In this document: positions 19,706 through 62,138 of the stretch, one piece after another
Numbering within the stretch: position 1 is the stretch's first letter
Layout: every line of letters begins with the position of its first letter
DNA from: an uncultured Dehalococcoidia bacterium
Lineage (GTDB): Bacteria > Chloroflexota > Dehalococcoidia > Lucifugimonadales > UBA1127
NCBI GenBank assembly: GCA_964612825.1
Contig: CAZTCW010000036.1
Location: 26,603 to 90,602 of the forward strand
Length of the DNA: 64,000 bases
Reading direction: 5' to 3'
The notes under the pieces: generated by a model
Database searches by the model: none
The model's input: the letters and a program-made list of their open reading frames with translations, nothing else
What the model was told of the DNA's origin: nothing
Translations under genes and position numbers: made by a program

Positions 19706-20260
19706 ATGATGCTGCGTATTATAAATTCTATCCATGAAAGAATTGGTTCCCCTATAACCTGCCTAATAATAGGCCTGTGTTTCGCGTTGCTACCACTCAT
19801 TTCTTGCTCAACCCCGGAAATGGCACCTAATTTTGTATTGACCAGTTACGGCAATTCTGCTGAAGATTTTAAGAATAAGAAATTTTCATTGGATGAATTT
19901 CGGGGAAATGCAGTCGTATTGAACTTTTGGGCTCCTTTATGTCCTCCGTGTCGTTCGGAAATGCCTCTGTTTGAATCATATTGGCAAGATGTAAAGGATA
20001 AAGGGGTGATAGTGTTAGGTGCTGACGTAGGACCTGCTTTGGGCTTGGGAAACGAAGAGGAAGCTCGAGAGTTCATTGAACAAATTGGTGTAACTTATCC
20101 CACTGGAAACACTAACTTAAATTCTGTAGTGGATTCGTATAGCATTCTGGGTATGCCGACCACGGTTTTTATTTCACCTGAGGGGGTTATAAAACATACT
20201 TGGATTGGTTCAATTGGTGAAGAGGATTTATTCCGATTGACAAAGGAATTCATCCAATAA
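19706..20260 (+). CDS. TlpA/ResA-like thiol:disulfide oxidoreductase, probable lipoprotein
   Basis: 184 aa. Signal peptide ending in lipobox-like LISC. Thioredoxin motif FWAPLCPPCRSE. Confidence 0.85.
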   Translation: MMLRIINSIHERIGSPITCLIIGLCFALLPLISCSTPEMAPNFVLTSYGNSAEDFKNKKFSLDEFRGNAVVLNFWAPLCPPCRSEMPLFESYWQDVKDKGVIVLGADVGPALGLGNEEEAREFIEQIGVTYPTGNTNLNSVVDSYSILGMPTTVFISPEGVIKHTWIGSIGEEDLFRLTKEFIQ

Positions 20261-29409: not shown

Positions 29410-29537
29410 CATAATGCTATCTACTTCAGGGATCCACCCCATTTGTTGCCCGTAGTATCTTAGTTCCATGGGGTGGATTACAATCATCAGTAATAGTTTA
29501 TTTTTACAGGGTTTTCTTTGATAAGGGGTCTATTAAA

Positions 29538-30035
29538 ATGCGGGAATTCTTGAATCAGAATTCATATGTCTTTCTTGGTTTAATCATCGTTGTTTTAAGT
29601 AGCCTCCTCCTAGTTCGAATCAATCTTCCTTTCAGTAAAATTTTTATTTTCGTTGGAATTTTAGCGATTATATTTTCGATCGGTATTAGTTTTAGAAACG
29701 GTAACAGTTCAATCAGTTCAACTGGTGAAGTTAAAGCAACCTTACATGGAGGGGAACCCACCGTAGTAATGTTCTATTCGGATTACTGAATTCTTTGTCT
29801 TTCGATTAAACCTGTCGTGAATAGGCTAGAACGATCTCTAAAAGGACAAGCAAAACTGATTCGGCTAAATCTAAGGGAATCTGTAGGTAGAGAATTATGG
29901 GACGTACATTCCTTGTCGGTGGTCCCGGCATTCGTAGTTTTTGATTCGAAGGGTCGAGAAGTTTGGAGGCAAGAAGGTCAATATCCAGACACCCATATGA
30001 TTATTAAAATGGCTGGTTCTGGTCAGATTCATTAA
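29538..30035 (+). CDS. membrane-anchored thioredoxin-fold protein interrupted by one in-frame TGA at the CxxC position (candidate selenoprotein U-I-L-C; alternatively a pseudogene)
   Basis: ORF-track entries 29538..29789 and 29817..30035 share a frame (both coordinates are 0 mod 3). The joined read is ...EPTVVMFYSDY-[TGA 29787-29789]-ILCLSIKPVVNRLERSL...SVVPAFVVFDSKGREVWRQEG, a canonical thioredoxin layout with TGA where the first redox Cys belongs. The N-terminus has two hydrophobic helices. Confidence 0.5.
29814..29835 (+). promoter_or_regulatory. weak hairpin downstream of the in-frame UGA (possible bacterial SECIS-like element)
   Basis: GUCGU / 12-nt loop GAAUAGGCUAGA / ACGAU (4 Watson-Crick pairs plus 1 G:U). 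Begins 27 nt after the UGA. Only a modest structure. Confidence 0.25.
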
Positions 30036-30140
30036 GATTTCCAGATAAATTAAAAAAATGATTACCGAATGATGGTTATCTATATTGCCCTTGTAAGAAA
30101 ATTGGTCATATAATGCGTGCAATCGAACACTGGAGAAGCG

Positions 30141-33100
30141 GTGTTTACCCATCTTCATACCCATACTGAATATAGTCTACTTGACGGCTTATCGCGGATT
30201 AATCCCATGGTGCAAAAATGTGTTGATTTAGGTATGGATTCCATTGCGATTACCGACCATGGGGCCATGTATGGCGTGTTAGATTTTTATAGCGAAGCCT
30301 TGGAAAAAGGGATCAAACCAATAATAGGTTGTGAGGTCTATGTTGCCCCCGGGGACCGGAAGAGTAAGGATTCGACCGATAGGACACCCTTCCATCTGAC
30401 GTTATTAGCCAAGGACAACGCGGGCTATAAAAACCTTATTCAGTTGGTAAGCAAAGCCCATTTGGAAGGGTTTTATTATCGTCCAAGAGTCGACAAGCAA
30501 CTCTTAGAAGAATACCGGAATGGAATCGTGGTTCTTTCTGGGTGTCTTAACGGAGAAATAGCCAAAAACATTCAAACCGACCGAATGCAGGAGGCAAAGT
30601 CCGTGGCTTCTTGGTTTAAAGAAGTCTTTAGGGATGATTTCTACTTAGAGCTTCAGCGCCACCCAGGGTTAACAGAACAAGATTCAGTTAACACTTCGCT
30701 TCTGGAACTTAACAAGGATCTAGGAATCCCAATCGTCGCGACTAATGATTTTCACTATGTACATAAAGAAGATGCTCCCCTCCAGGATATTCTGATATGT
30801 ATTCATACCAATACTACCGTGAATGATAAGGCACGCTTAAAAATGCATGGCGATTCTTTTTATCTAAAGAGTGCCGAAGAAATGACGGCGCTTTTTGAGG
30901 ATATTCCCCAAGCTATATCAAATACTCAGCGAATCTCTGAAATGTGCGATGTCCGGATTAATTTTGATCAAATTTATCTTCCAGATTATAAAACCCCAAA
31001 TGATGAAAACCCAGATAAATACCTATCTCAACTGTGTTTAGATGGACTTGTGCGACGGCTTCCGGGGGCTCCTTCCAGGTATAAAGAGCGATTAGATTAC
31101 GAACTGGAAGTTATCCGTCAAATGAGGTTCGCGAATTATTTCCTTGTGGTTTGGGACATTATTACTTATGCGCGGGAAAATGGTGTTTTGTACGGTGTCA
31201 GAGGGAGTGCGGCTGCCAGCTTGGTTCTCTATTGCCTAGGTGTGACTGACGTTAATCCACTCCAATACAATTTGGTCTTCGAACGATTTCTAAACGTTGA
31301 GCGAAAAGAGATGCCTGATATTGACATGGATTTTCAGGATGACAGGCGTGATGAAGTAATCCAGCATGTCGTAAGGAAATACGGAAAAGATCATGTAGCT
31401 CAAATTATTACCTTTGGGACAATGGGCCCGAAAGCAGCAATCCGAGACGTAGGGCGTGCTCTGGCTATGCCATATTCAGCTGCCGATAAAATTGCTCGAT
31501 TAGTTCCTCTTAGGACGCAATCACTGGCGGAAGCAAAAAAGGTGAATCCTGAACTACAGGCCTTGTATGATTCTGACAATGAGCTGTCTACATTGATGGA
31601 TCTGGCACAAAGCGTTGAAGGGATGGTTCGCCATGTGAGTACGCATGCCGCCGCGGTGGTAATAACTCAGGAACCTACTACTGAATATGTCCCGGTCCAG
31701 AGACCCGTCAGGGGAGAAAGCAGCGAAATATCCATGACCCAATTTCCTATGGGTCCGATAGCAAAACTTGGTTTACTCAAAATGGACTTTTTAGGCTTAG
31801 CTAACTTGACCGTTTTAAAAAGGGTGATGGGATTAATCCATCAAAGGCATGGCCGATTATTTACGCTTCAAGATGTCCCCTTAGATGATGAAACCACCTT
31901 CAAGCTCTTGTCTTCAGGAGAAACCGCGGACGTATTTCAGCTTGAAGGGACAGGTATGCGGAAGCATATTCGTGAATTAAAACCTTCTTCATTGGAAGAA
32001 GTAGCTGCCATGATAGCCCTATATCGCCCAGGGCCTATGGAGCATATAGATACCTACATTAGGGCAAAACATGGCCAAGCTGAAGTCCAATATCCCCATT
32101 CATCTCTGAAAGAACTTTTGGAGGAAACTTATGGGGTAATCGTCTACCAGGATCAGGTATTACGTATTGCACAGCGATTTGCAGGATATAGTTTGGGTGA
32201 GGCGGATATCGTCCGGAAGGCCATGGGTAAGAAAGTGCCTGAAATTATGAGAGAAGAAAGAGAGCGTTTCATTTCAGGGGCAGTCTTACTAGGCTATACG
32301 AAAGACGAGGCTGAAAGTGTATTTGATCTTATAGAACCTTTTGCTGGATACGCCTTTAACAAAGCACATGCGGTAAGTTACGCTCTAATTGCTTATTGGA
32401 CGGCATATTTTAAAGCAAATTATCAGCTGGAATACATGACTTCTGTATTAAATATCCGAATGGGGAATACGGAAAAAATTGCTGGAGTCGTTGGGGAATG
32501 CCATCGGCTCTTAATCCCGGTTCTTCCGCCTGATCTCAATAAAAGTGAGACCGATTTTCATATAGAGGAATTAATTGATGGGAAGCATGGCATTAGGTTC
32601 GGATTGGCGGCAGTTAAGAATGTAGGAGAACAGGCGGCGAAAACTATTGAGGCGGCTCGTTTCCTAACTGGGACATTTGATAGTATCGAAGATATGTGCC
32701 ACCGAGTGGACACAAAAGGGACGAATCGAAGAACGCTAGAGAGTCTAATAAAAGTTGGCGCCATGGATTCTCTGAACCCCGATCGTTTATCCATTTTGTC
32801 TGGATTGGATCGTATTGTAAGCCTAGCTCAAAAAGAGGCACGAATTAGAGAGTCTGGCCAACGGTCGATGTTCGAAATTTTAACCGATTCAGTGGAAGAA
32901 ACCCAGAGCTCGTTGGAATTTGAATCGGGCCCTTTAATGACTGATAGCGAAAAAGCGGAATGGGAACGTGAGCTTTTAGGGATATCCTTTTCGGATGAAT
33001 CTTTTCGAGACCTGCTTTCTACTGTAGATCCTTCAGACGCCATTGTTTCTATAGCCGCTGTAGATTTAGATAATACTAAGGAGCGGTTAAATTTTATTGG

Positions 33101-58200: not shown

Positions 58201-60948
58201 ATGACGCCAAATACTGATTTTGGTTTCCTAGGGAATATTCGAAGCGCCTTGAAATGGGGGATTCTAGTCGGCGGGATCCTTCTTCTCCTTTTCTTGGCTA
58301 ACTGGATTGCTCACATCTATACGGATCTTCTGTGGTTCGGAAATATGGATTACCGTTCTGTTTTTACAACAATACTCTCTACTCGGATTTGGCTATTTGT
58401 TACAGGGGCCTTGGTATTTGCCATAATCGGCGGGATTAATATTTTCGTCACCTATAAGTTAGGAGGGGGCCCTGAAGTAAACCCTATGTCGGGAGACTCA
58501 TTCCAACTTTTCACTACTTTGTTGCGATTAGGGAGTCTAACGGCCATTTTAGTGGGTTCTATTGCATTTGGTATTCTTTTGTCCGGTCGATGGGAAACAT
58601 TTCTGGGTTTCCTAAATTCTACTTCTTTCTCTCTAACGGATCCTCAGTTTAATCGTGACATAGAATTCTATGTTTTTCGACTGCCCATTTTTCATTTTGT
58701 GCAAAGCTGGTTAATAGCTGCTCTTGTCGTTTCGCTGGCTTTATCAATTGGCATGTACTTTTTGCACTTTAGTCTTCGTGGTGCGGTTTTCACACTTACA
58801 AAGCCTGTTCGAGCTCATATTTCTATCTTAGGAATTCTGATTTTACTACTTTTTGCGCTTGGCTATTATTTGAAAATTTTTGATCTTGTGTTTTCTCCGG
58901 GTGGAGCGGTTGTTGGGGCTACCTATGCTGATGTACATGCTAGGGTTAATGCCTTTCGGATAATTATCGCAGTAATTTTTGTAGGGGCAGGGCTTTTAAC
59001 CTTTAATATGTTTGGTGGACTTGGTACTCGTTTAATGATAGCTGCGGTGGGATTGTGCGTTGGTGGGGCAATTTTAATAGGATTGGTTTACCCGAATGTT
59101 ATCCAGAGGGTGGTTGTTAATCCGAATGAATTACGGCGGGAGGCCCCGTTTATTGAGCGAAACATCGAATTTACAAGGGCTGCCTTTGCCTTAGATAGAA
59201 TTGAGGCCAAAGATTATCCCTTGGCTACCGATGAAGCAATTTCTCCCCAAATGATTGAAGCGAATCAGGAGACTGTAAATGATGTCCGGCTTTGGGATCA
59301 TCGGCCATTCCGTTCTATTCTCAATCAAATTCAATTTTTCCGACTTTACTATACTTTCCCGAATGTCGATGTTGACCGATATGTTGTAAATCAGGATGGC
59401 GAAACGCGTCTTCGACAGGTAATGTTGGGAACTCGTGAGCTTGATTCAGCGAATTTGCCGGAAGAAGCTCAATGTTGGATTAACCGGAAATTGCAGTTTA
59501 CACATGGGTACGGAGCGGTTGTATCGCCCGTGACGGAATTTACCCAAGAGGGAAGTCCGATCTTCTTTGTGAAAGATATGCCTCCTACTCAGGATATTAT
59601 CCCGCTTGAGCGCCCTGAAGTTTATTACGGGGAGATAAGCGAAAACTTCGTAATTGTGAACTCGAATCAGCCCGAACTTGACTTCGCTCCCACATCTGGT
59701 GAGCCTGTTTATACGTCATATCAAGGTGATGGAGGGGTTACTTTATCTGGGTTTTTGCGTAGGGTGGTTTATGCATGGCAATTCCGAGATGTTAACATCC
59801 TTATTAGTGGAGAAATCAACTCCAAAAGTAAGATCCAATACCATCGTCAAATTCAACAGCGCGTCCAAAAACTGGCTCCTTTCCTTAGGTTAGATTCAGA
59901 TCCCTATATTGTGTTAGATCAGGGGAGATTGTTTTGGATCCAGGACGCCTATACGGTCACCAAACAATTTCCCTACTCGACTCCGTTGAACCTTGAAGGA
60001 GAGAAGATAAACTATATACGGAACAGTGTGAAAGTGGTGATTGATGCTTATAGCGGGCATCCTACTTTATATGTGACAGAAGCAAGCGACCCCTTAGTAC
60101 AGACGTACCAAAAAATATTCCCCGAATTGTTTAAAGGGTTGAATGAAATGCCCCCGGGTCTCCGCTCGCATATTAGGTACCCCCAAGATCTGATGGGAAT
60201 CCAATCCCGCCAATATCTTATCTATCATATGACAGATCCTACAGAATTCTTTAACAAGGAAGACCAATGGAGTATACCCAATGAATACCTCCAAGGGGCT
60301 TTCGAGGAAATGCAACCGTATTTTCTTAATATGCGTCTTCCAGGAGAAGAGACTCTGGAATTCGTACAGCTTCTTCCTTTTACTCCGGCAAACAAAGAAA
60401 ACATGGTAGCTTGGCTCGCTGCTAGGAGTGATGGTGAAAATTACGGTAAATTAATTGCCTATGCATTTCCTAAAGGTGTCACTATATTCGGGCCGGCACA
60501 GGTTGAAGCTCGAATTAGTAATGACCAAGATATTAAACAATTTTTTGCGTTAGTGTGTACTGGGGAGGCCAGCTGTATACGGGGAAACCTCTTGGTAATT
60601 CCTATGGAAGACGATTCTGGAAACAAGCAAATATTGTACGCCGAACCCCTATATCTTCAAGCGACTGGATTAGCCTTCCCTGAATTAAAGAAAGTTATTT
60701 TGGCAGATAGTAATGACGTGGTTATGGAGGATACCTTGGAGCAAGCCATCGCGTCGCTCACCAAGAGTTCGGCTCCCCTTTTGAGCAGACAGGAAAAACC
60801 CGAAGTCACTGTAGAAACCGGTAAATCGAAACTGGAGATAGCCCTTTCTAACTTAGTTGAGGCTTTGGGGAGCCTAAAAGAACAGTACACCTCTTTGGAG
60901 AAAGCTGTGTCAGAGATACAGGAAGCGACCGAAGGGTCATCGAAATGA
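58201..60948 (+). CDS. UPF0182-family large membrane protein
   Basis: 915 aa. About 7 N-terminal helices with the LWF..MDY start typical of UPF0182, then a large soluble region. ATGA overlap with the argD start. Confidence 0.8.
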   Translation: MTPNTDFGFLGNIRSALKWGILVGGILLLLFLANWIAHIYTDLLWFGNMDYRSVFTTILSTRIWLFVTGALVFAIIGGINIFVTYKLGGGPEVNPMSGDSFQLFTTLLRLGSLTAILVGSIAFGILLSGRWETFLGFLNSTSFSLTDPQFNRDIEFYVFRLPIFHFVQSWLIAALVVSLALSIGMYFLHFSLRGAVFTLTKPVRAHISILGILILLLFALGYYLKIFDLVFSPGGAVVGATYADVHARVNAFRIIIAVIFVGAGLLTFNMFGGLGTRLMIAAVGLCVGGAILIGLVYPNVIQRVVVNPNELRREAPFIERNIEFTRAAFALDRIEAKDYPLATDEAISPQMIEANQETVNDVRLWDHRPFRSILNQIQFFRLYYTFPNVDVDRYVVNQDGETRLRQVMLGTRELDSANLPEEAQCWINRKLQFTHGYGAVVSPVTEFTQEGSPIFFVKDMPPTQDIIPLERPEVYYGEISENFVIVNSNQPELDFAPTSGEPVYTSYQGDGGVTLSGFLRRVVYAWQFRDVNILISGEINSKSKIQYHRQIQQRVQKLAPFLRLDSDPYIVLDQGRLFWIQDAYTVTKQFPYSTPLNLEGEKINYIRNSVKVVIDAYSGHPTLYVTEASDPLVQTYQKIFPELFKGLNEMPPGLRSHIRYPQDLMGIQSRQYLIYHMTDPTEFFNKEDQWSIPNEYLQGAFEEMQPYFLNMRLPGEETLEFVQLLPFTPANKENMVAWLAARSDGENYGKLIAYAFPKGVTIFGPAQVEARISNDQDIKQFFALVCTGEASCIRGNLLVIPMEDDSGNKQILYAEPLYLQATGLAFPELKKVILADSNDVVMEDTLEQAIASLTKSSAPLLSRQEKPEVTVETGKSKLEIALSNLVEALGSLKEQYTSLEKAVSEIQEATEGSSK

Positions 60949-62138
60949 GTTCTTGGATTGAAAAAGATGAAACGTATTACATGCCAGTGGCTAGACGTCA
61001 GCCTATTGTAATCACCCGCGGTCTGGGAACGACAGTTTGGGATGAAAATGATGTTCAATATCTTGACTTTACTTCTGGATGGGCTGTAAACAACATAGGG
61101 CATTGTAATCCCGTACTTGTTGAAGCAATTCGAAAACAGGCAGGGACCCTGATTCAAACGTCTAATCAATTTTATACCGTCCCTCAATTAGAACTTGCTG
61201 AATTCCTGACCCAAAATAGCTGTTTGGACAAAGTATTCTTTTGTAACAGTGGGGCAGAGGCTAATGAAGGGGCAATTAAGCTGGCTCGGAAATTTGGAAA
61301 ACTAAACTTAGATGGCGCTTACGAAATTATTGCAACGGTAAATTCTTTCCATGGACGGACATTAACCACAGCGGCAGCCACTGGAAACGTGCATTACCAA
61401 GAAAATTTTACACCAATGACCCCGGGCTTCATCCATGTTGAATATAACAACATTGAGGCCCTCCAAAATGCTACAAATAACAATACTTGTGCAGTCATTT
61501 TAGAACCGGTTCAGGGAGAGGGTGGGGTTATTATCCCGGATGGGCAATATTTGAAGCGGGTTCGCGAATTGTGTGATGAGAAGGGGATTCTTCTGATACT
61601 CGATGAAGTGCAAACTGGGATGGGACGTTTGGGGGCCTTATTTGGTTATCAGCGGTTTGATATTGAACCAGATGTTATGACGTTGGCAAAAGGTCTGGGC
61701 GGAGGAGTGCCAATTGGAGCCTTTCTTTCTAAATCTCATTGTGATGTGCTTCGTCCAGGTGATCATGGCTCAACATTTGGGGGTAATCCATTAACCTGTG
61801 CGGCTTCGTTTGCCGTTGCCAACTTCATTGTAGAACAGGGAATACCTGAAAAAGTGTTAGAAAGTGAACGAATCCTTATGGATGGCCTTGAGGCTATAAA
61901 AGCCCGACACGAAACTCTCATAAAAGAGGTCAGGGGAATGGGATTGCTCTTGGCTGTTGAGTTCTACGAAGATATCGGACCTCAGATCGTTTCTATTTCT
62001 AACGACAATGGATTGCTTTTGAACCCTGTTCGCCCAAATGTTGTCCGATTCATGCCACCATTAACGGTGTCTGAAACTGAAATTCGAGAAGCGGTTGATA
62101 GGTTTGGGAAGGCTGTTGATTCTTTGTCGACTAAGTGA
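60945..62138 (+). CDS. argD: acetylornithine aminotransferase
   Basis: 397 aa. Class III aminotransferase: FCNSGAEANEGAIK, LDEVQTGMGR and TLAKGLGGG (PLP lysine). Confidence 0.93.
   Translation: MSSWIEKDETYYMPVARRQPIVITRGLGTTVWDENDVQYLDFTSGWAVNNIGHCNPVLVEAIRKQAGTLIQTSNQFYTVPQLELAEFLTQNSCLDKVFFCNSGAEANEGAIKLARKFGKLNLDGAYEIIATVNSFHGRTLTTAAATGNVHYQENFTPMTPGFIHVEYNNIEALQNATNNNTCAVILEPVQGEGGVIIPDGQYLKRVRELCDEKGILLILDEVQTGMGRLGALFGYQRFDIEPDVMTLAKGLGGGVPIGAFLSKSHCDVLRPGDHGSTFGGNPLTCAASFAVANFIVEQGIPEKVLESERILMDGLEAIKARHETLIKEVRGMGLLLAVEFYEDIGPQIVSISNDNGLLLNPVRPNVVRFMPPLTVSETEIREAVDRFGKAVDSLSTK

What the first reader, a model, noticed from the sequence alone, without database searches (positions are those of the whole stretch)
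29538..30035. In-frame TGA sits exactly at the first Cys of a thioredoxin CxxC motif: candidate UxxC selenoprotein
Two ORF-track entries (29538..29789 and 29817..30035) are in the same reading frame. They are separated only by TGA (29787-29789) plus nine sense codons.

Read through, the product is two N-terminal transmembrane helices followed by ...GGEPTVVMFYSDY-[TGA]-ILC-LSIKPVVNRLERSLKGQAKLIRLNL...SVVPAFVVFDSKGREVWRQEGQ. This is the textbook thioredoxin-fold order: beta strand, redox motif at the helix N-cap, cis-Pro 'VP' before beta3, then G-x-x-x-x-R-x-x-G. The TGA occupies the position of the nucleophilic Cys, giving U-I-L-C.

Neither half makes sense alone. The first half is an anchor plus one strand. 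The second half lacks any redox motif and would need a GTG start with no SD.

TGA is a real stop elsewhere in the window (gltX, glmS), so this is not a recoded genetic code. A modest hairpin (29814-29835) starts 27 nt after the UGA, within the distance range described for bacterial SECIS elements.

Sec/Cys interchange in UxxC/CxxU thioredoxin-like proteins is well established in bacterial selenoproteomes. The competing explanation is a one-hit TGY-to-TGA nonsense mutation, i.e. a pseudogene.
Basis: partly seen in the sequence, partly recalled or inferred. Interest (0 to 1): 0.78.

Follow-up and report, generated by a model that had tools for sequence, protein, structure and literature searches.

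The report
Membrane-anchored selenocysteine thioredoxin gene
The in-frame TGA is almost certainly a selenocysteine codon in a membrane-anchored thioredoxin-like protein of a marine Dehalococcoidia bacterium; public gene calls split this gene in two, but it belongs to an already well-known kind of bacterial selenoprotein.

Summary
Window 29538-30035 (+) is one reading frame with a single TGA (29787-29789). The joined product is two transmembrane helices plus a thioredoxin fold, and the TGA sits at the first Cys of CxxC.

The selenoprotein reading is strongly supported:
- The exact gene, TGA included, lies on 16 contigs from at least 8 assemblies.
- Orthologues diverged to dS 0.65-1.9 keep the TGA. 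Both halves are under purifying selection (omega 0.12-0.27).
- In an unbiased search the column is Cys in 83 cluster representatives and TGA-type in about 49.
- Syntenic Chloroflexota orthologues carry Cys or UGA.
- At least 120 metagenome contigs carry the same UGA.
- A conserved hairpin lies 19 nt after the UGA (window 29809-29827). It has a GU loop and strong covariation that survives GC-stratified and codon-usage controls.

The window's own hairpin is the weakest in the family. selA, selB, selC and selD are not in the window, so the machinery is untested for this genome, although Dehalococcoidia include very selenoprotein-rich genomes.

UxxC thioredoxin-like selenoproteins have been catalogued in marine metagenomes since 2005-2008. 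This is therefore a new member of a known kind, of modest interest.

The parts
29538..30035 (+). Complete selenoprotein gene: 165 codons (UGA = codon 84) plus the TAA stop at 30033-30035.
   Evidence: Single frame with one TGA. Pfam Thioredoxin match spans the TGA. omega is 0.12-0.27 on both sides of the TGA against L002, L132 and L160.
29523..29528 (+). Possible Shine-Dalgarno sequence (AAGGGG), 9 nt before the ATG at 29538.
   Evidence: Read directly from the sequence. This is inference only.
29562..29690 (+). Two transmembrane helices (residues 9-27 and 32-51) joined by a short positively charged loop (RINLPFSK).
   Evidence: AF2 secondary structure. Positive-inside analysis of 96 family members puts the loop in the cytoplasm.
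29751..29999 (+). Thioredoxin-fold domain (residues 72-154).
   Evidence: PF00085 at 31.3 bits, above the gathering score of 23.5. Foldseek matches solved thioredoxins with TM about 0.80 (normalised to the target) and rmsd about 2.2 A. The PDB profile search gives E = 3e-15.
29787..29789 (+). UGA read as selenocysteine (residue 84).
   Evidence: It aligns with Cys in 83 homologue clusters. TGA is kept in L001, L002, L132, L160, L187 and L212-L219.
29787..29798 (+). Redox motif U-I-L-C. The resolving Cys87 is at 29796-29798.
   Evidence: Cys87 is invariant in alignments A3 and A8. It lies upstream of the GTG at 29817 that would start a separate second ORF.
29809..29827 (+). SECIS-like hairpin AACCUGUC-GUG-AAUAGGCU. 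In the window the core stem is 29811-29815 paired with 29821-29825, and the loop is CGUGA (29816-29820).
   Evidence: RNAalifold consensus and pair counts on 82 sequences: 90.4% of cells paired against 23-41% in slid registers; pair 27-37 is C-G 40 / U-A 38; pair 28-36 is G-C 41 / A-U 31. Controls. Covariance model hit.
29925..29927 (+). Codon for the invariant Pro130, the cis-Pro of the thioredoxin fold, just before beta3.
   Evidence: Invariant in A3 and A8. Strand 131-135 follows it in the model.

Best explanation
The locus is one gene for a 165-residue selenoprotein.

Inferred mechanism. During translation the UGA at 29787 is recoded to selenocysteine. The mRNA hairpin 19 nt downstream (29809-29827, with GU in its apical loop) recruits SelB carrying Sec-tRNA(Sec) to the ribosome, so termination is bypassed.

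Product. The product is anchored by a two-helix hairpin. Its short positively charged inter-helix loop faces the cytoplasm, so the thioredoxin domain is exposed on the outer face of the cytoplasmic membrane. There the U-x-x-C centre acts as a thiol/selenol-disulfide oxidoreductase.

What is shown: a single translated frame; Sec/Cys interchange at this column; a conserved, covarying hairpin; the thioredoxin fold.

What is inferred: that the inserted residue is Sec and that SelB inserts it; the membrane topology; the redox role. The substrate is unknown.
For: - Conservation and selection. The TGA is kept in orthologues from independent samples. Against L002, omega is 0.16 upstream and 0.23 downstream (dS 0.85). 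Against L132, omega is 0.12 and 0.18. Against L160, omega is 0.27 and 0.23.
- Second half is not a separate gene. The GTG that would start it is GTT in L002. Codon +10 is GTG in only 44 of 82 family members.
- Unbiased search of 1.84 billion representatives. The column is Cys in 83, W (a code-4 call of TGA) in 19 and Ser in 5; 27 fragments begin just after it and 3 end at it. W = TGA is verified by DNA for 8 of the 19.
- Synteny. Chloroflexota orthologues in the same gene order have Cys (L205, L207, L208) or UGA (L209-L211).
- Abundance. Nearly all have 65-96 open codons of Trx C-terminal half after the TGA; the exceptions are contig-end truncations, one spurious hit (L097) and one frameshifted tail (L181).
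- Hairpin. It is paired in 90.4% of cells against 23-41% in slid registers; 0 of 500 shuffles reach the observed score. RNAalifold finds it independently.
- Codon usage. Gly at +12 is GGG 40/40 (baseline 21%, p = 1e-27). Arg at +12 is NGG 40/40 (baseline 35%). Pro at +8 is only CCC or CCU. GC3-stratified shuffles reach the observed pairing 0/5000 times for three pairs.
- Protein proxy. Residue +12 is R or G in 106/108 UGA-type members against 28/82 Cys-type members.
- Covariance model. A model built from other lineages hits 29787-29831 at 43.7 bits.
- Published bSECIS consensus (PMC13188914). The family meets the loop, G-position and spacing criteria. The energy criterion is met by the hairpin alone in 60 of 82 members (median -8.6) and by nt 4-63 in 81 of 82.
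- Lineage. Dehalococcoidia MAGs are among the ten most selenoprotein-rich bacteria in BSepDB (PMC13326102).
Against: - No selA, selB, selD or tRNA-Sec is present in the 64-kb window or in 1.7 Mb of related flanks, so the machinery is unverified for this genome.
- The window's own hairpin is the weakest of 82: -3.4 kcal/mol alone against a median of -8.6, with 6 of 8 pairs. It reaches the published -7.5 criterion only when nt 4-63 are folded (-9.3). Its stability is no better than shuffled sequence.
- Part of the hairpin's complementarity is built into the conserved peptide K-P-x-V-D-[RG]-L. Cys-type orthologues with R or G at +12 still form 6-7 of 8 pairs.
- My metagenome pattern fixed AAR CC on the 5' arm.
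- No Rfam family matches.
- There is no experimental evidence of selenium in the protein.
Confidence: 0.9

Rival explanations
1. Pseudogene: a single TGY-to-TGA nonsense mutation inactivated a CxxC thioredoxin-like gene.
For: One base change from TGT or TGC would suffice. Public gene callers split the locus into 83-aa and 72-aa ORFs with no Pfam hit. The window's hairpin is weak.
Against: The TGA is kept across dS 0.65-1.9, with omega 0.18-0.23 on the downstream half. The window's close orthologues carry no second stop or frameshift, and neither do nearly all of the roughly 120 loci. The same TGA occurs across many divergent subfamilies and comes with a covarying hairpin.
Confidence: 0.02
2. 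Two separate products: translation ends at the UGA to give an 83-residue membrane peptide, and the C-terminal half is translated independently from an internal start.
For: A GTG lies at 29817. Gene callers find varied starts for the second half.
Against: The GTG is GTT in L002. No start codon is conserved after the UGA: 20 of 82 members have none in codons +1 to +12. The invariant resolving Cys87 and the rest of helix alpha1 lie between the UGA and the GTG. Cys-type orthologues are single polypeptides.
Confidence: 0.02
3. The UGA is read through, but not as selenocysteine. For example, a near-cognate or suppressor tRNA inserts Trp, Cys or Gly, with the hairpin acting as a generic read-through stimulator.
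For: The Sec machinery is not shown for this genome. The identity of the inserted residue cannot be read from DNA.
Against: TGA ends 11 of 46 genes here, so there is no global reassignment. The position is the nucleophilic Cys of a redox motif, the classic Sec/Cys site. The hairpin fits the published SelB-type bSECIS consensus in loop size, G-U loop start and 27-nt spacing. The class is known to be selenoprotein-rich.
Confidence: 0.05
4. Sequencing or assembly error created the TGA.
For: None beyond the a priori possibility.
Against: The identical sequence is on 16 contigs from at least 8 independent assemblies, and in diverged orthologues.
Confidence: 0.01

Closest known systems
Selenoprotein thioredoxin (PF00085, UxxC), experimentally verified in Treponema denticola. 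Listed in the prokaryotic selenoprotein inventories (PMC13188914, PMC9312934).
   Same: Thioredoxin fold. Sec replaces the N-terminal nucleophilic Cys of CxxC. UGA is followed by an in-frame coding-region SECIS. Under the domain-plus-motif rule used in those inventories, this protein falls in the same class.
   Different: It has an N-terminal two-helix membrane anchor and a predicted extracytoplasmic location. The motif is U-I-L-C, not U-G-P-C. It scores only 29.5 bits against NCBIfam's thioredoxin model, whose cutoff is 96.8.
Marine metagenome families 'Trx-like 1' (COG0526, UxxC, 321 Sec sequences) and 'Trx-like 3' (weak cd02950/TxlA similarity, 212 Sec / 183 Cys) of the GOS selenoproteome (PMC2398784), and 'thiol-disulfide isomerase-like' (UxxC) of the Sargasso Sea (PMC1088965).
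   Same: Marine origin. UxxC on a Trx-like fold. Both Sec and Cys forms exist. JGI labels the Cys forms of this family 'thiol-disulfide isomerase/thioredoxin', the COG0526 name. There is a weak match to the TxlA-like slr1796 model.
   Different: Identity with either GOS family could not be established. The GOS supplements held as text contain none of the signature peptides, and the papers mention no transmembrane anchor.
Membrane-anchored extracytoplasmic thiol:disulfide oxidoreductases (TlpA, ResA, CcmG/DsbE, DsbD C-terminal domain).
   Same: A thioredoxin-like domain tethered to the outer face of the cytoplasmic membrane with a CxxC-type centre. The DsbD C-terminal domain appears among the fold matches (rank 37).
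   Different: The anchor is two helices rather than one. The fold is closest to plain thioredoxins. NCBIfam scores are far below the cutoffs (TlpA 17.5 against 230; DsbD 16.7-25.1 against 330). No CcdA/DsbD-type partner is a conserved neighbour family-wide.
Bacterial SECIS elements (E. coli fdhF/fdnG type; bSECISearch consensus).
   Same: A hairpin inside the coding region just after the UGA. The apical loop is small and starts G-U. The spacing of 27 nt is within the 16-37 range. The stem of 8 bp is within the 4-16 range.
   Different: The sequence is family-specific and overlaps the conserved peptide K-P-x-V-D-[R/G]-L. No Rfam model matches it. The window's copy has only 5 contiguous pairs and a 5-nt loop.

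Membership tests
Bacterial selenoprotein gene (Sec-UGA decoded through SECIS/SelB) | The in-frame UGA aligns with a conserved Cys in homologues (Sec/Cys pair). | tested here: met
   Cys in 83 of 138 cluster representatives and TGA-type in about 49. Syntenic Cys and UGA orthologues exist.
Bacterial selenoprotein gene (Sec-UGA decoded through SECIS/SelB) | The UGA is conserved in orthologues, and the frame after it is under purifying selection. | tested here: met
   Downstream omega is 0.23 (L002), 0.18 (L132) and 0.23 (L160). The gene is on 16 contigs from at least 8 assemblies.
Bacterial selenoprotein gene (Sec-UGA decoded through SECIS/SelB) | bSECIS geometry: apical loop 3-9 nt, upper stem 4-16 bp, G in the first two loop positions, 16-37 nt from the UGA (PMC13188914, Fig. 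2 legend). | tested here: met
   Family: 8-bp stem, GUN loop, 27-nt spacing. Window: 5-bp stem, loop CGUGA, 26-nt spacing.
Bacterial selenoprotein gene (Sec-UGA decoded through SECIS/SelB) | bSECIS stability: MFE <= -7.5 kcal/mol. | tested here: inconclusive
   The family hairpin alone has a median of -8.6, and 60 of 82 meet the criterion. The window's hairpin alone is -3.4. Folding window nt 4-63 gives -9.3.
Bacterial selenoprotein gene (Sec-UGA decoded through SECIS/SelB) | The structure is supported by compensatory base changes. | tested here: met
   Pair 27-37: CG 40 / UA 38. Pair 28-36: GC 41 / AU 31. Pair 24-40: GC 46 / AU 13. 0/500 plain shuffles and 0/5000 GC3-stratified shuffles reach the observed values.
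Bacterial selenoprotein gene (Sec-UGA decoded through SECIS/SelB) | selA, selB, selC (tRNA-Sec) and selD are present in the same genome. | not testable with these tools
   They are absent from the window and from 1.7 Mb of flanks. The class is known to contain Sec users (PMC13326102).
Bacterial selenoprotein gene (Sec-UGA decoded through SECIS/SelB) | Selenium is demonstrated in the protein. | not testable with these tools
   This needs 75Se labelling or mass spectrometry.
Thioredoxin fold (Pfam PF00085) | Score above Pfam's gathering threshold. | tested here: met
   31.3 bits against 23.5, residues 72-154.
Thioredoxin fold (Pfam PF00085) | Beta-alpha-beta-alpha-beta-beta-alpha core, with the redox motif at the N-terminus of alpha1 and a cis-Pro before beta3. 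| tested here: met
   AF2 model at pLDDT 91.2. Foldseek TM about 0.80 to solved thioredoxins, normalised to the target. Pro130 is invariant.
Canonical thioredoxin TrxA (NCBIfam TIGR01068) | Equivalog score above the cutoff; WCGPC-type motif; soluble protein. | tested here: not met
   29.5 bits against a cutoff of 96.8. The motif is U-I-L-C. There are two TM helices.
Curated selenoprotein-specific NCBIfam families (GOS_C NF045500, SaoT NF040730, HUIPC NF047660, TsoB NF045694 and others) | Score above the family cutoff. | tested here: not met
   The only match is TsoB at 18-27 bits against a cutoff of 805, and only for family members, not for the window protein. The other models do not appear in the table.
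TlpA/ResA/CcmG/DsbD-type extracytoplasmic oxidoreductases | Family model score above the cutoff. | tested here: not met
   TlpA 17.5 against 230; ResA 16 against 170; DsbD 16.7-25.1 against 330. The functional resemblance rests only on the predicted topology.

The most novel reading that the evidence does not exclude
This is a distinct and so far uncatalogued selenoprotein family, widespread in marine and sediment metagenomes. Its members are two-helix-anchored, extracytoplasmic selenothioredoxins with their own compact SECIS. That RNA structure dictates protein sequence: residue +12 can only be Arg (AGG) or Gly (GGG), and it switches together with a synonymous Pro codon. In Chloroflexota the gene is translationally coupled to a TPMT/TehB-type methyltransferase, which hints at a role in handling selenium, tellurium, arsenic or thiols at the membrane surface.
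Probability: 0.3. Interest if true: 0.5.

Novelty: new member of a known kind. Interest (0 to 1): 0.33.

Why it matters
- **Annotation.** This gene and its many relatives are split into two meaningless ORFs, or deposited as truncated ~70-residue 'thioredoxin family protein' entries, in public records. Some pipelines translate them with a false Trp. A family model with a Sec exception would repair hundreds of gene calls.
- **Biology.** It adds a membrane-tethered, probably outward-facing selenoprotein to the already large selenoproteomes of marine Dehalococcoidia.
- **Method.** It is a clean example of an RNA element constraining amino-acid choice inside a coding region.
- **Limits.** It does not change any concept of how selenocysteine is used.

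Tried and rejected
- **Genome scan with trx patterns.** A scan of species-representative genomes with trx-derived peptide patterns found nothing.
- **PheS scan.** The second scan, with PheS, named the lineage, but none of the 80 loci has a trx gene next to pheS. Synteny therefore gave no orthologues.
- **Thermodynamics alone.** Single-sequence folding gave no signal for the window (z about 0).
- **Rfam.** No SECIS family matched at gathering or permissive thresholds.
- **Sec machinery.** E. coli SelA/SelB/SelD probes and ARAGORN found no machinery in anything fetched.
- **Neighbours.** Clustering found no partner gene conserved across the family.
- **GOS supplements.** They held no signature peptides, so identity with the GOS 'Trx-like' families could not be settled.
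The hairpin at 29814-29835 was tested and rejected.
- **GC content as the cause of apparent covariation.** This was considered and rejected: stratified shuffles do not reach the observed pairing, and the two variable pairs vary independently.
- **A probe detail.** The third row of alignment A5 carried an N-terminal prefix I added to P0005. It served only as a search probe, and that search found nothing.

Full report
**The observation.** Window 29538-30035 on the + strand translates as one frame with a single internal stop, TGA at 29787-29789, and ends at TAA 30033-30035. With Cys put at the TGA, the 165-residue product scores 31.3 bits on Pfam Thioredoxin (threshold 23.5), and the match covers residues 72-154, so it runs across the TGA. 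An AlphaFold2 model built on 61 family sequences has mean pLDDT 91.2. It shows helices at 9-27 and 32-51, then alpha-beta-alpha-beta-alpha-beta-beta-alpha. Residue 84 lies directly before helix 85-101, and the invariant Pro130 lies directly before strand 131-135. The soluble part superposes on solved thioredoxins at TM about 0.80 (normalised to the target) and rmsd about 2.2 A. A profile of the family finds classical thioredoxins in the PDB at E = 3e-15.

**TGA is an ordinary stop elsewhere in the window.** It ends 11 of 46 long ORFs. These include GltX, GlmS, AlaS, chorismate synthase, a phosphoglucomutase and an aminotransferase, whose Pfam matches run to the ends of the profiles. No other ORF pair or ORF extension in the 64 kb looks like a read-through gene.

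**Not an error and not a pseudogene.** The exact 83-residue N-terminal half is recorded on 16 contigs from at least 8 assemblies. It is always followed by the same 72-residue ORF and always called as two genes with no Pfam hit. The two closest full-length database proteins show W at the critical column, but their DNA has TGA: the gene caller had used code 4.

- Against the orthologue L002 (71% protein identity, from a different sample), dS is 0.85. omega is 0.16 upstream and 0.23 downstream of the TGA.
- Against L132, omega is 0.12 upstream and 0.18 downstream at dS 0.65-0.82.
- Against L160, omega is 0.27 upstream and 0.23 downstream at dS about 1.9.
- The GTG at 29817, which a separate second gene would need, is GTT in L002.
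- Across the family no start codon is conserved after the UGA.
- The invariant resolving Cys87 lies between the UGA and that GTG.

**Sec/Cys interchange.** A profile search of 1.84 billion cluster representatives, which is blind to the TGA, found 732 relatives at E <= 0.001. The best 150 were listed, and they include many proteins of about 160 residues with the same N-terminal NQ[YN]S motif, two TM helices and a Trx domain. Among the 138 of those 150 short enough to align (<= 210 residues), the column is Cys in 83, W in 19 and Ser in 5. A further 27 are fragments of about 66-83 residues that begin just after the column, and 3 are 83-residue fragments that end exactly before it. For the 8 W-type representatives with a near-identical locus in hand, the W lies opposite TGA.

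In one Chloroflexota subfamily the gene order is the same in every locus: an EF-G paralogue, then trx, then a TPMT/TehB-type methyltransferase, with a PF01676 metalloenzyme gene after it in most. In that order the trx gene has Cys in three loci and UGA in three others, where callers split it into 83-85 and 70 residues. Nearly all continue in frame for 65-96 codons of Trx C-terminal half; the exceptions are contig-end truncations, one spurious hit and one frameshifted tail.

**The SECIS element.** Counting the U of UGA as position 1, the 82 sequences that are under 90% identical align without gaps. They share a hairpin with stem 23-30/34-41 and loop 31-33 (GUN). RNAalifold predicts its six outer pairs unaided.

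- In register, 90.4% of cells pair, against 23-41% when the partner is slid by 1-3 columns. No shuffle of 500 reaches the observed score.
- Pair 27-37 is C-G in 40 sequences and U-A in 38.
- Pair 28-36 is G-C in 41, A-U in 31 and G-U in 6.
- Pair 24-40 is G-C in 46, A-U in 13 and G-U in 5.

The hairpin overlaps the conserved peptide K-P-x-V-D-[RG]-L, and genome GC content could mimic covariation, so I ran further controls.

- Gly at +12 is always GGG (40/40), against 21% of Gly codons elsewhere in the same genes (p = 1e-27).
- Arg at +12 is always NGG (40/40, of which 39 are AGG, the rarest Arg codon elsewhere; p = 4e-19).
- Pro at +8 is CCC or CCU in 81 of 82, although CCG is the commonest Pro codon elsewhere.
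- Shuffles within GC3 strata never reach the observed Watson-Crick counts for three pairs (0/5000).
- The two main variable pairs combine freely: U-A with G-C in 25 sequences, C-G with A-U in 23.

At the protein level, residue +12 is R or G in 106 of 108 UGA-type genes but in only 28 of 82 Cys-type relatives. The loop Val is present in 108/108 UGA-type against 53/82 Cys-type. The three distinct Cys-type genes that do have R or G there keep only a degraded hairpin, with 6-7 of 8 pairs and mismatches in the core.

The family element fits the published bacterial SECIS consensus in geometry: loop 3-9 nt, stem 4-16 bp, G then U or G at the start of the loop, and 16-37 nt from the UGA (PMC13188914). 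The energy criterion (MFE <= -7.5) is met by the hairpin alone in 60 of 82 members, and by nt 4-63 in 81 of 82. A covariance model built from 79 sequences of other lineages, excluding the window and its close relatives, hits the window once at 29787-29831 with 43.7 bits. The next best hit in both strands of 64 kb scores 13.7 bits and lacks the hairpin.

**Caveats on the SECIS.**
- The window's copy (AACCUGUC GUG AAUAGGCU) is the weakest of the 82. An Asp-to-Asn change (GAU to AAU) breaks the closing pair, leaving five contiguous pairs and a CGUGA loop. The hairpin alone folds at -3.4 kcal/mol, against a family median of -8.6. The -7.5 criterion is met only when nt 4-63 are folded together (-9.3).
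- L132 shares this variant and still shows omega 0.18 downstream, so the weak form appears to work. Efficiency may be low.
- My search pattern fixed AAR CC on the 5' arm, which contributes to the invariance of columns 22-26, though not to the partner columns.

**Organism and machinery.** The nearest PheS sequences in species-representative genomes are from uncultured Dehalococcoidia/Chloroflexota MAGs, at 54-66% identity over the full protein (74% for one partial match). The nearest relatives of the gene come from marine metagenome assemblies. The window holds only a tRNA-Arg. E. coli SelA, SelB and SelD used as tblastn probes, and ARAGORN, find nothing in the window or in 1.7 Mb of fetched flanks. 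The decisive genome-wide check therefore cannot be made here. As indirect support, BSepDB lists two Dehalococcoidia MAGs, with 49 and 46 selenoprotein genes, among the ten richest bacteria (PMC13326102).

**Likely function.** In 96 family members with two predicted TM helices, the loop of about 8 residues between them carries on average 2.8 Lys+Arg. The N-tail carries 0.26, and the segment after TM2 is net-acidic. The loop is the more positive in 89 of 96. By the positive-inside rule the loop is cytoplasmic and the Trx domain lies outside the membrane. That would make the protein an outward-facing selenol/thiol-disulfide oxidoreductase, working like TlpA, ResA or CcmG. This is inference. NCBIfam scores for those families are far below their cutoffs, and no partner gene is conserved across the family.

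**Comparison with what is known.** UxxC selenoproteins on a thioredoxin fold are long established. A Sec-thioredoxin is experimentally verified. The Sargasso Sea and GOS surveys list Trx, 'thiol-disulfide isomerase-like', 'Trx-like 1' (COG0526, 321 Sec sequences) and 'Trx-like 3' (212 Sec, 183 Cys) among the most abundant marine selenoproteins (PMC1088965, PMC2398784, PMC9312934, PMC13188914). Under the domain-plus-motif rule of those inventories this protein belongs with Trx (PF00085, UxxC).

What is not documented is this particular two-helix-anchored family. No NCBIfam model, including the selenoprotein-specific ones, reaches its cutoff. NCBI MAG records carry only truncated 70-residue halves. 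The GOS supplements held as text do not contain its signature peptides.

**Verdict.** This is a genuine selenoprotein gene and a new member of a known kind.

Noticed in passing
L205-L211 (e.g. L209 10001-10779; L210 10001-10770): In the Chloroflexota 'LLEFQSPY[C/U]' subfamily, the trx gene in the UGA-type loci overlaps by 4 nt with a downstream TPMT/TehB-type SAM methyltransferase. A PF01676 'Metalloenzyme' gene and, in several loci, a HemN-like radical-SAM gene lie nearby, and an EF-G paralogue lies upstream in most loci. From my own knowledge, bacterial TPMT and TehB are linked to selenium and tellurium methylation, so there may be a functional link. The window's gene lacks this neighbour.
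   Followed up: partly
L083-L202 (neighbour clusters): Subsets of the family loci sit next to other genes: a CsoR-like metal-sensing repressor (9 loci), an ArsM-like methyltransferase with a Cys-rich N-terminus (5 loci), and MFS transporters (6-7 loci). No neighbour is shared by the whole family.
   Followed up: partly
P0001, P0002, P0013 and other 'W' proteins; L103: ENA and JGI metagenome gene calls under genetic code 4 put a false Trp at the Sec codon. In P0013 they also appear to read through the true terminal TGA (183 residues against 161 for the locus read to its TGA stop). Database proteins of this family that show W-x-x-C are artefacts.
   Followed up: yes
L002 470-629 compared with window 30100-30160: Downstream of the conserved start region of dnaE, L002 diverges completely from the window after about 30 nt. 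It is either a chimeric contig or a different gene arrangement.
   Followed up: no
window 19706-20260 (+): An AhpC-TSA/Redoxin-family protein is encoded about 10 kb upstream (called as 146 residues in L212). It is a second thiol-redox protein in the neighbourhood, has no in-frame TGA, and is a Cys form.
   Followed up: no
window 58201-60948 (+): A 915-residue UPF0182 protein (PF03699, 900 bits) of unknown function ends in TGA, and the next gene (60945-62138) overlaps it by 4 nt.
   Followed up: no
family-wide: Five cluster representatives have Ser at the Sec/Cys column (SxxC), and a few have CxxS. A second architecture also exists, with a single N-terminal TM helix and the motif YSNF-U-STCL, and it carries the same hairpin.
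   Followed up: partly
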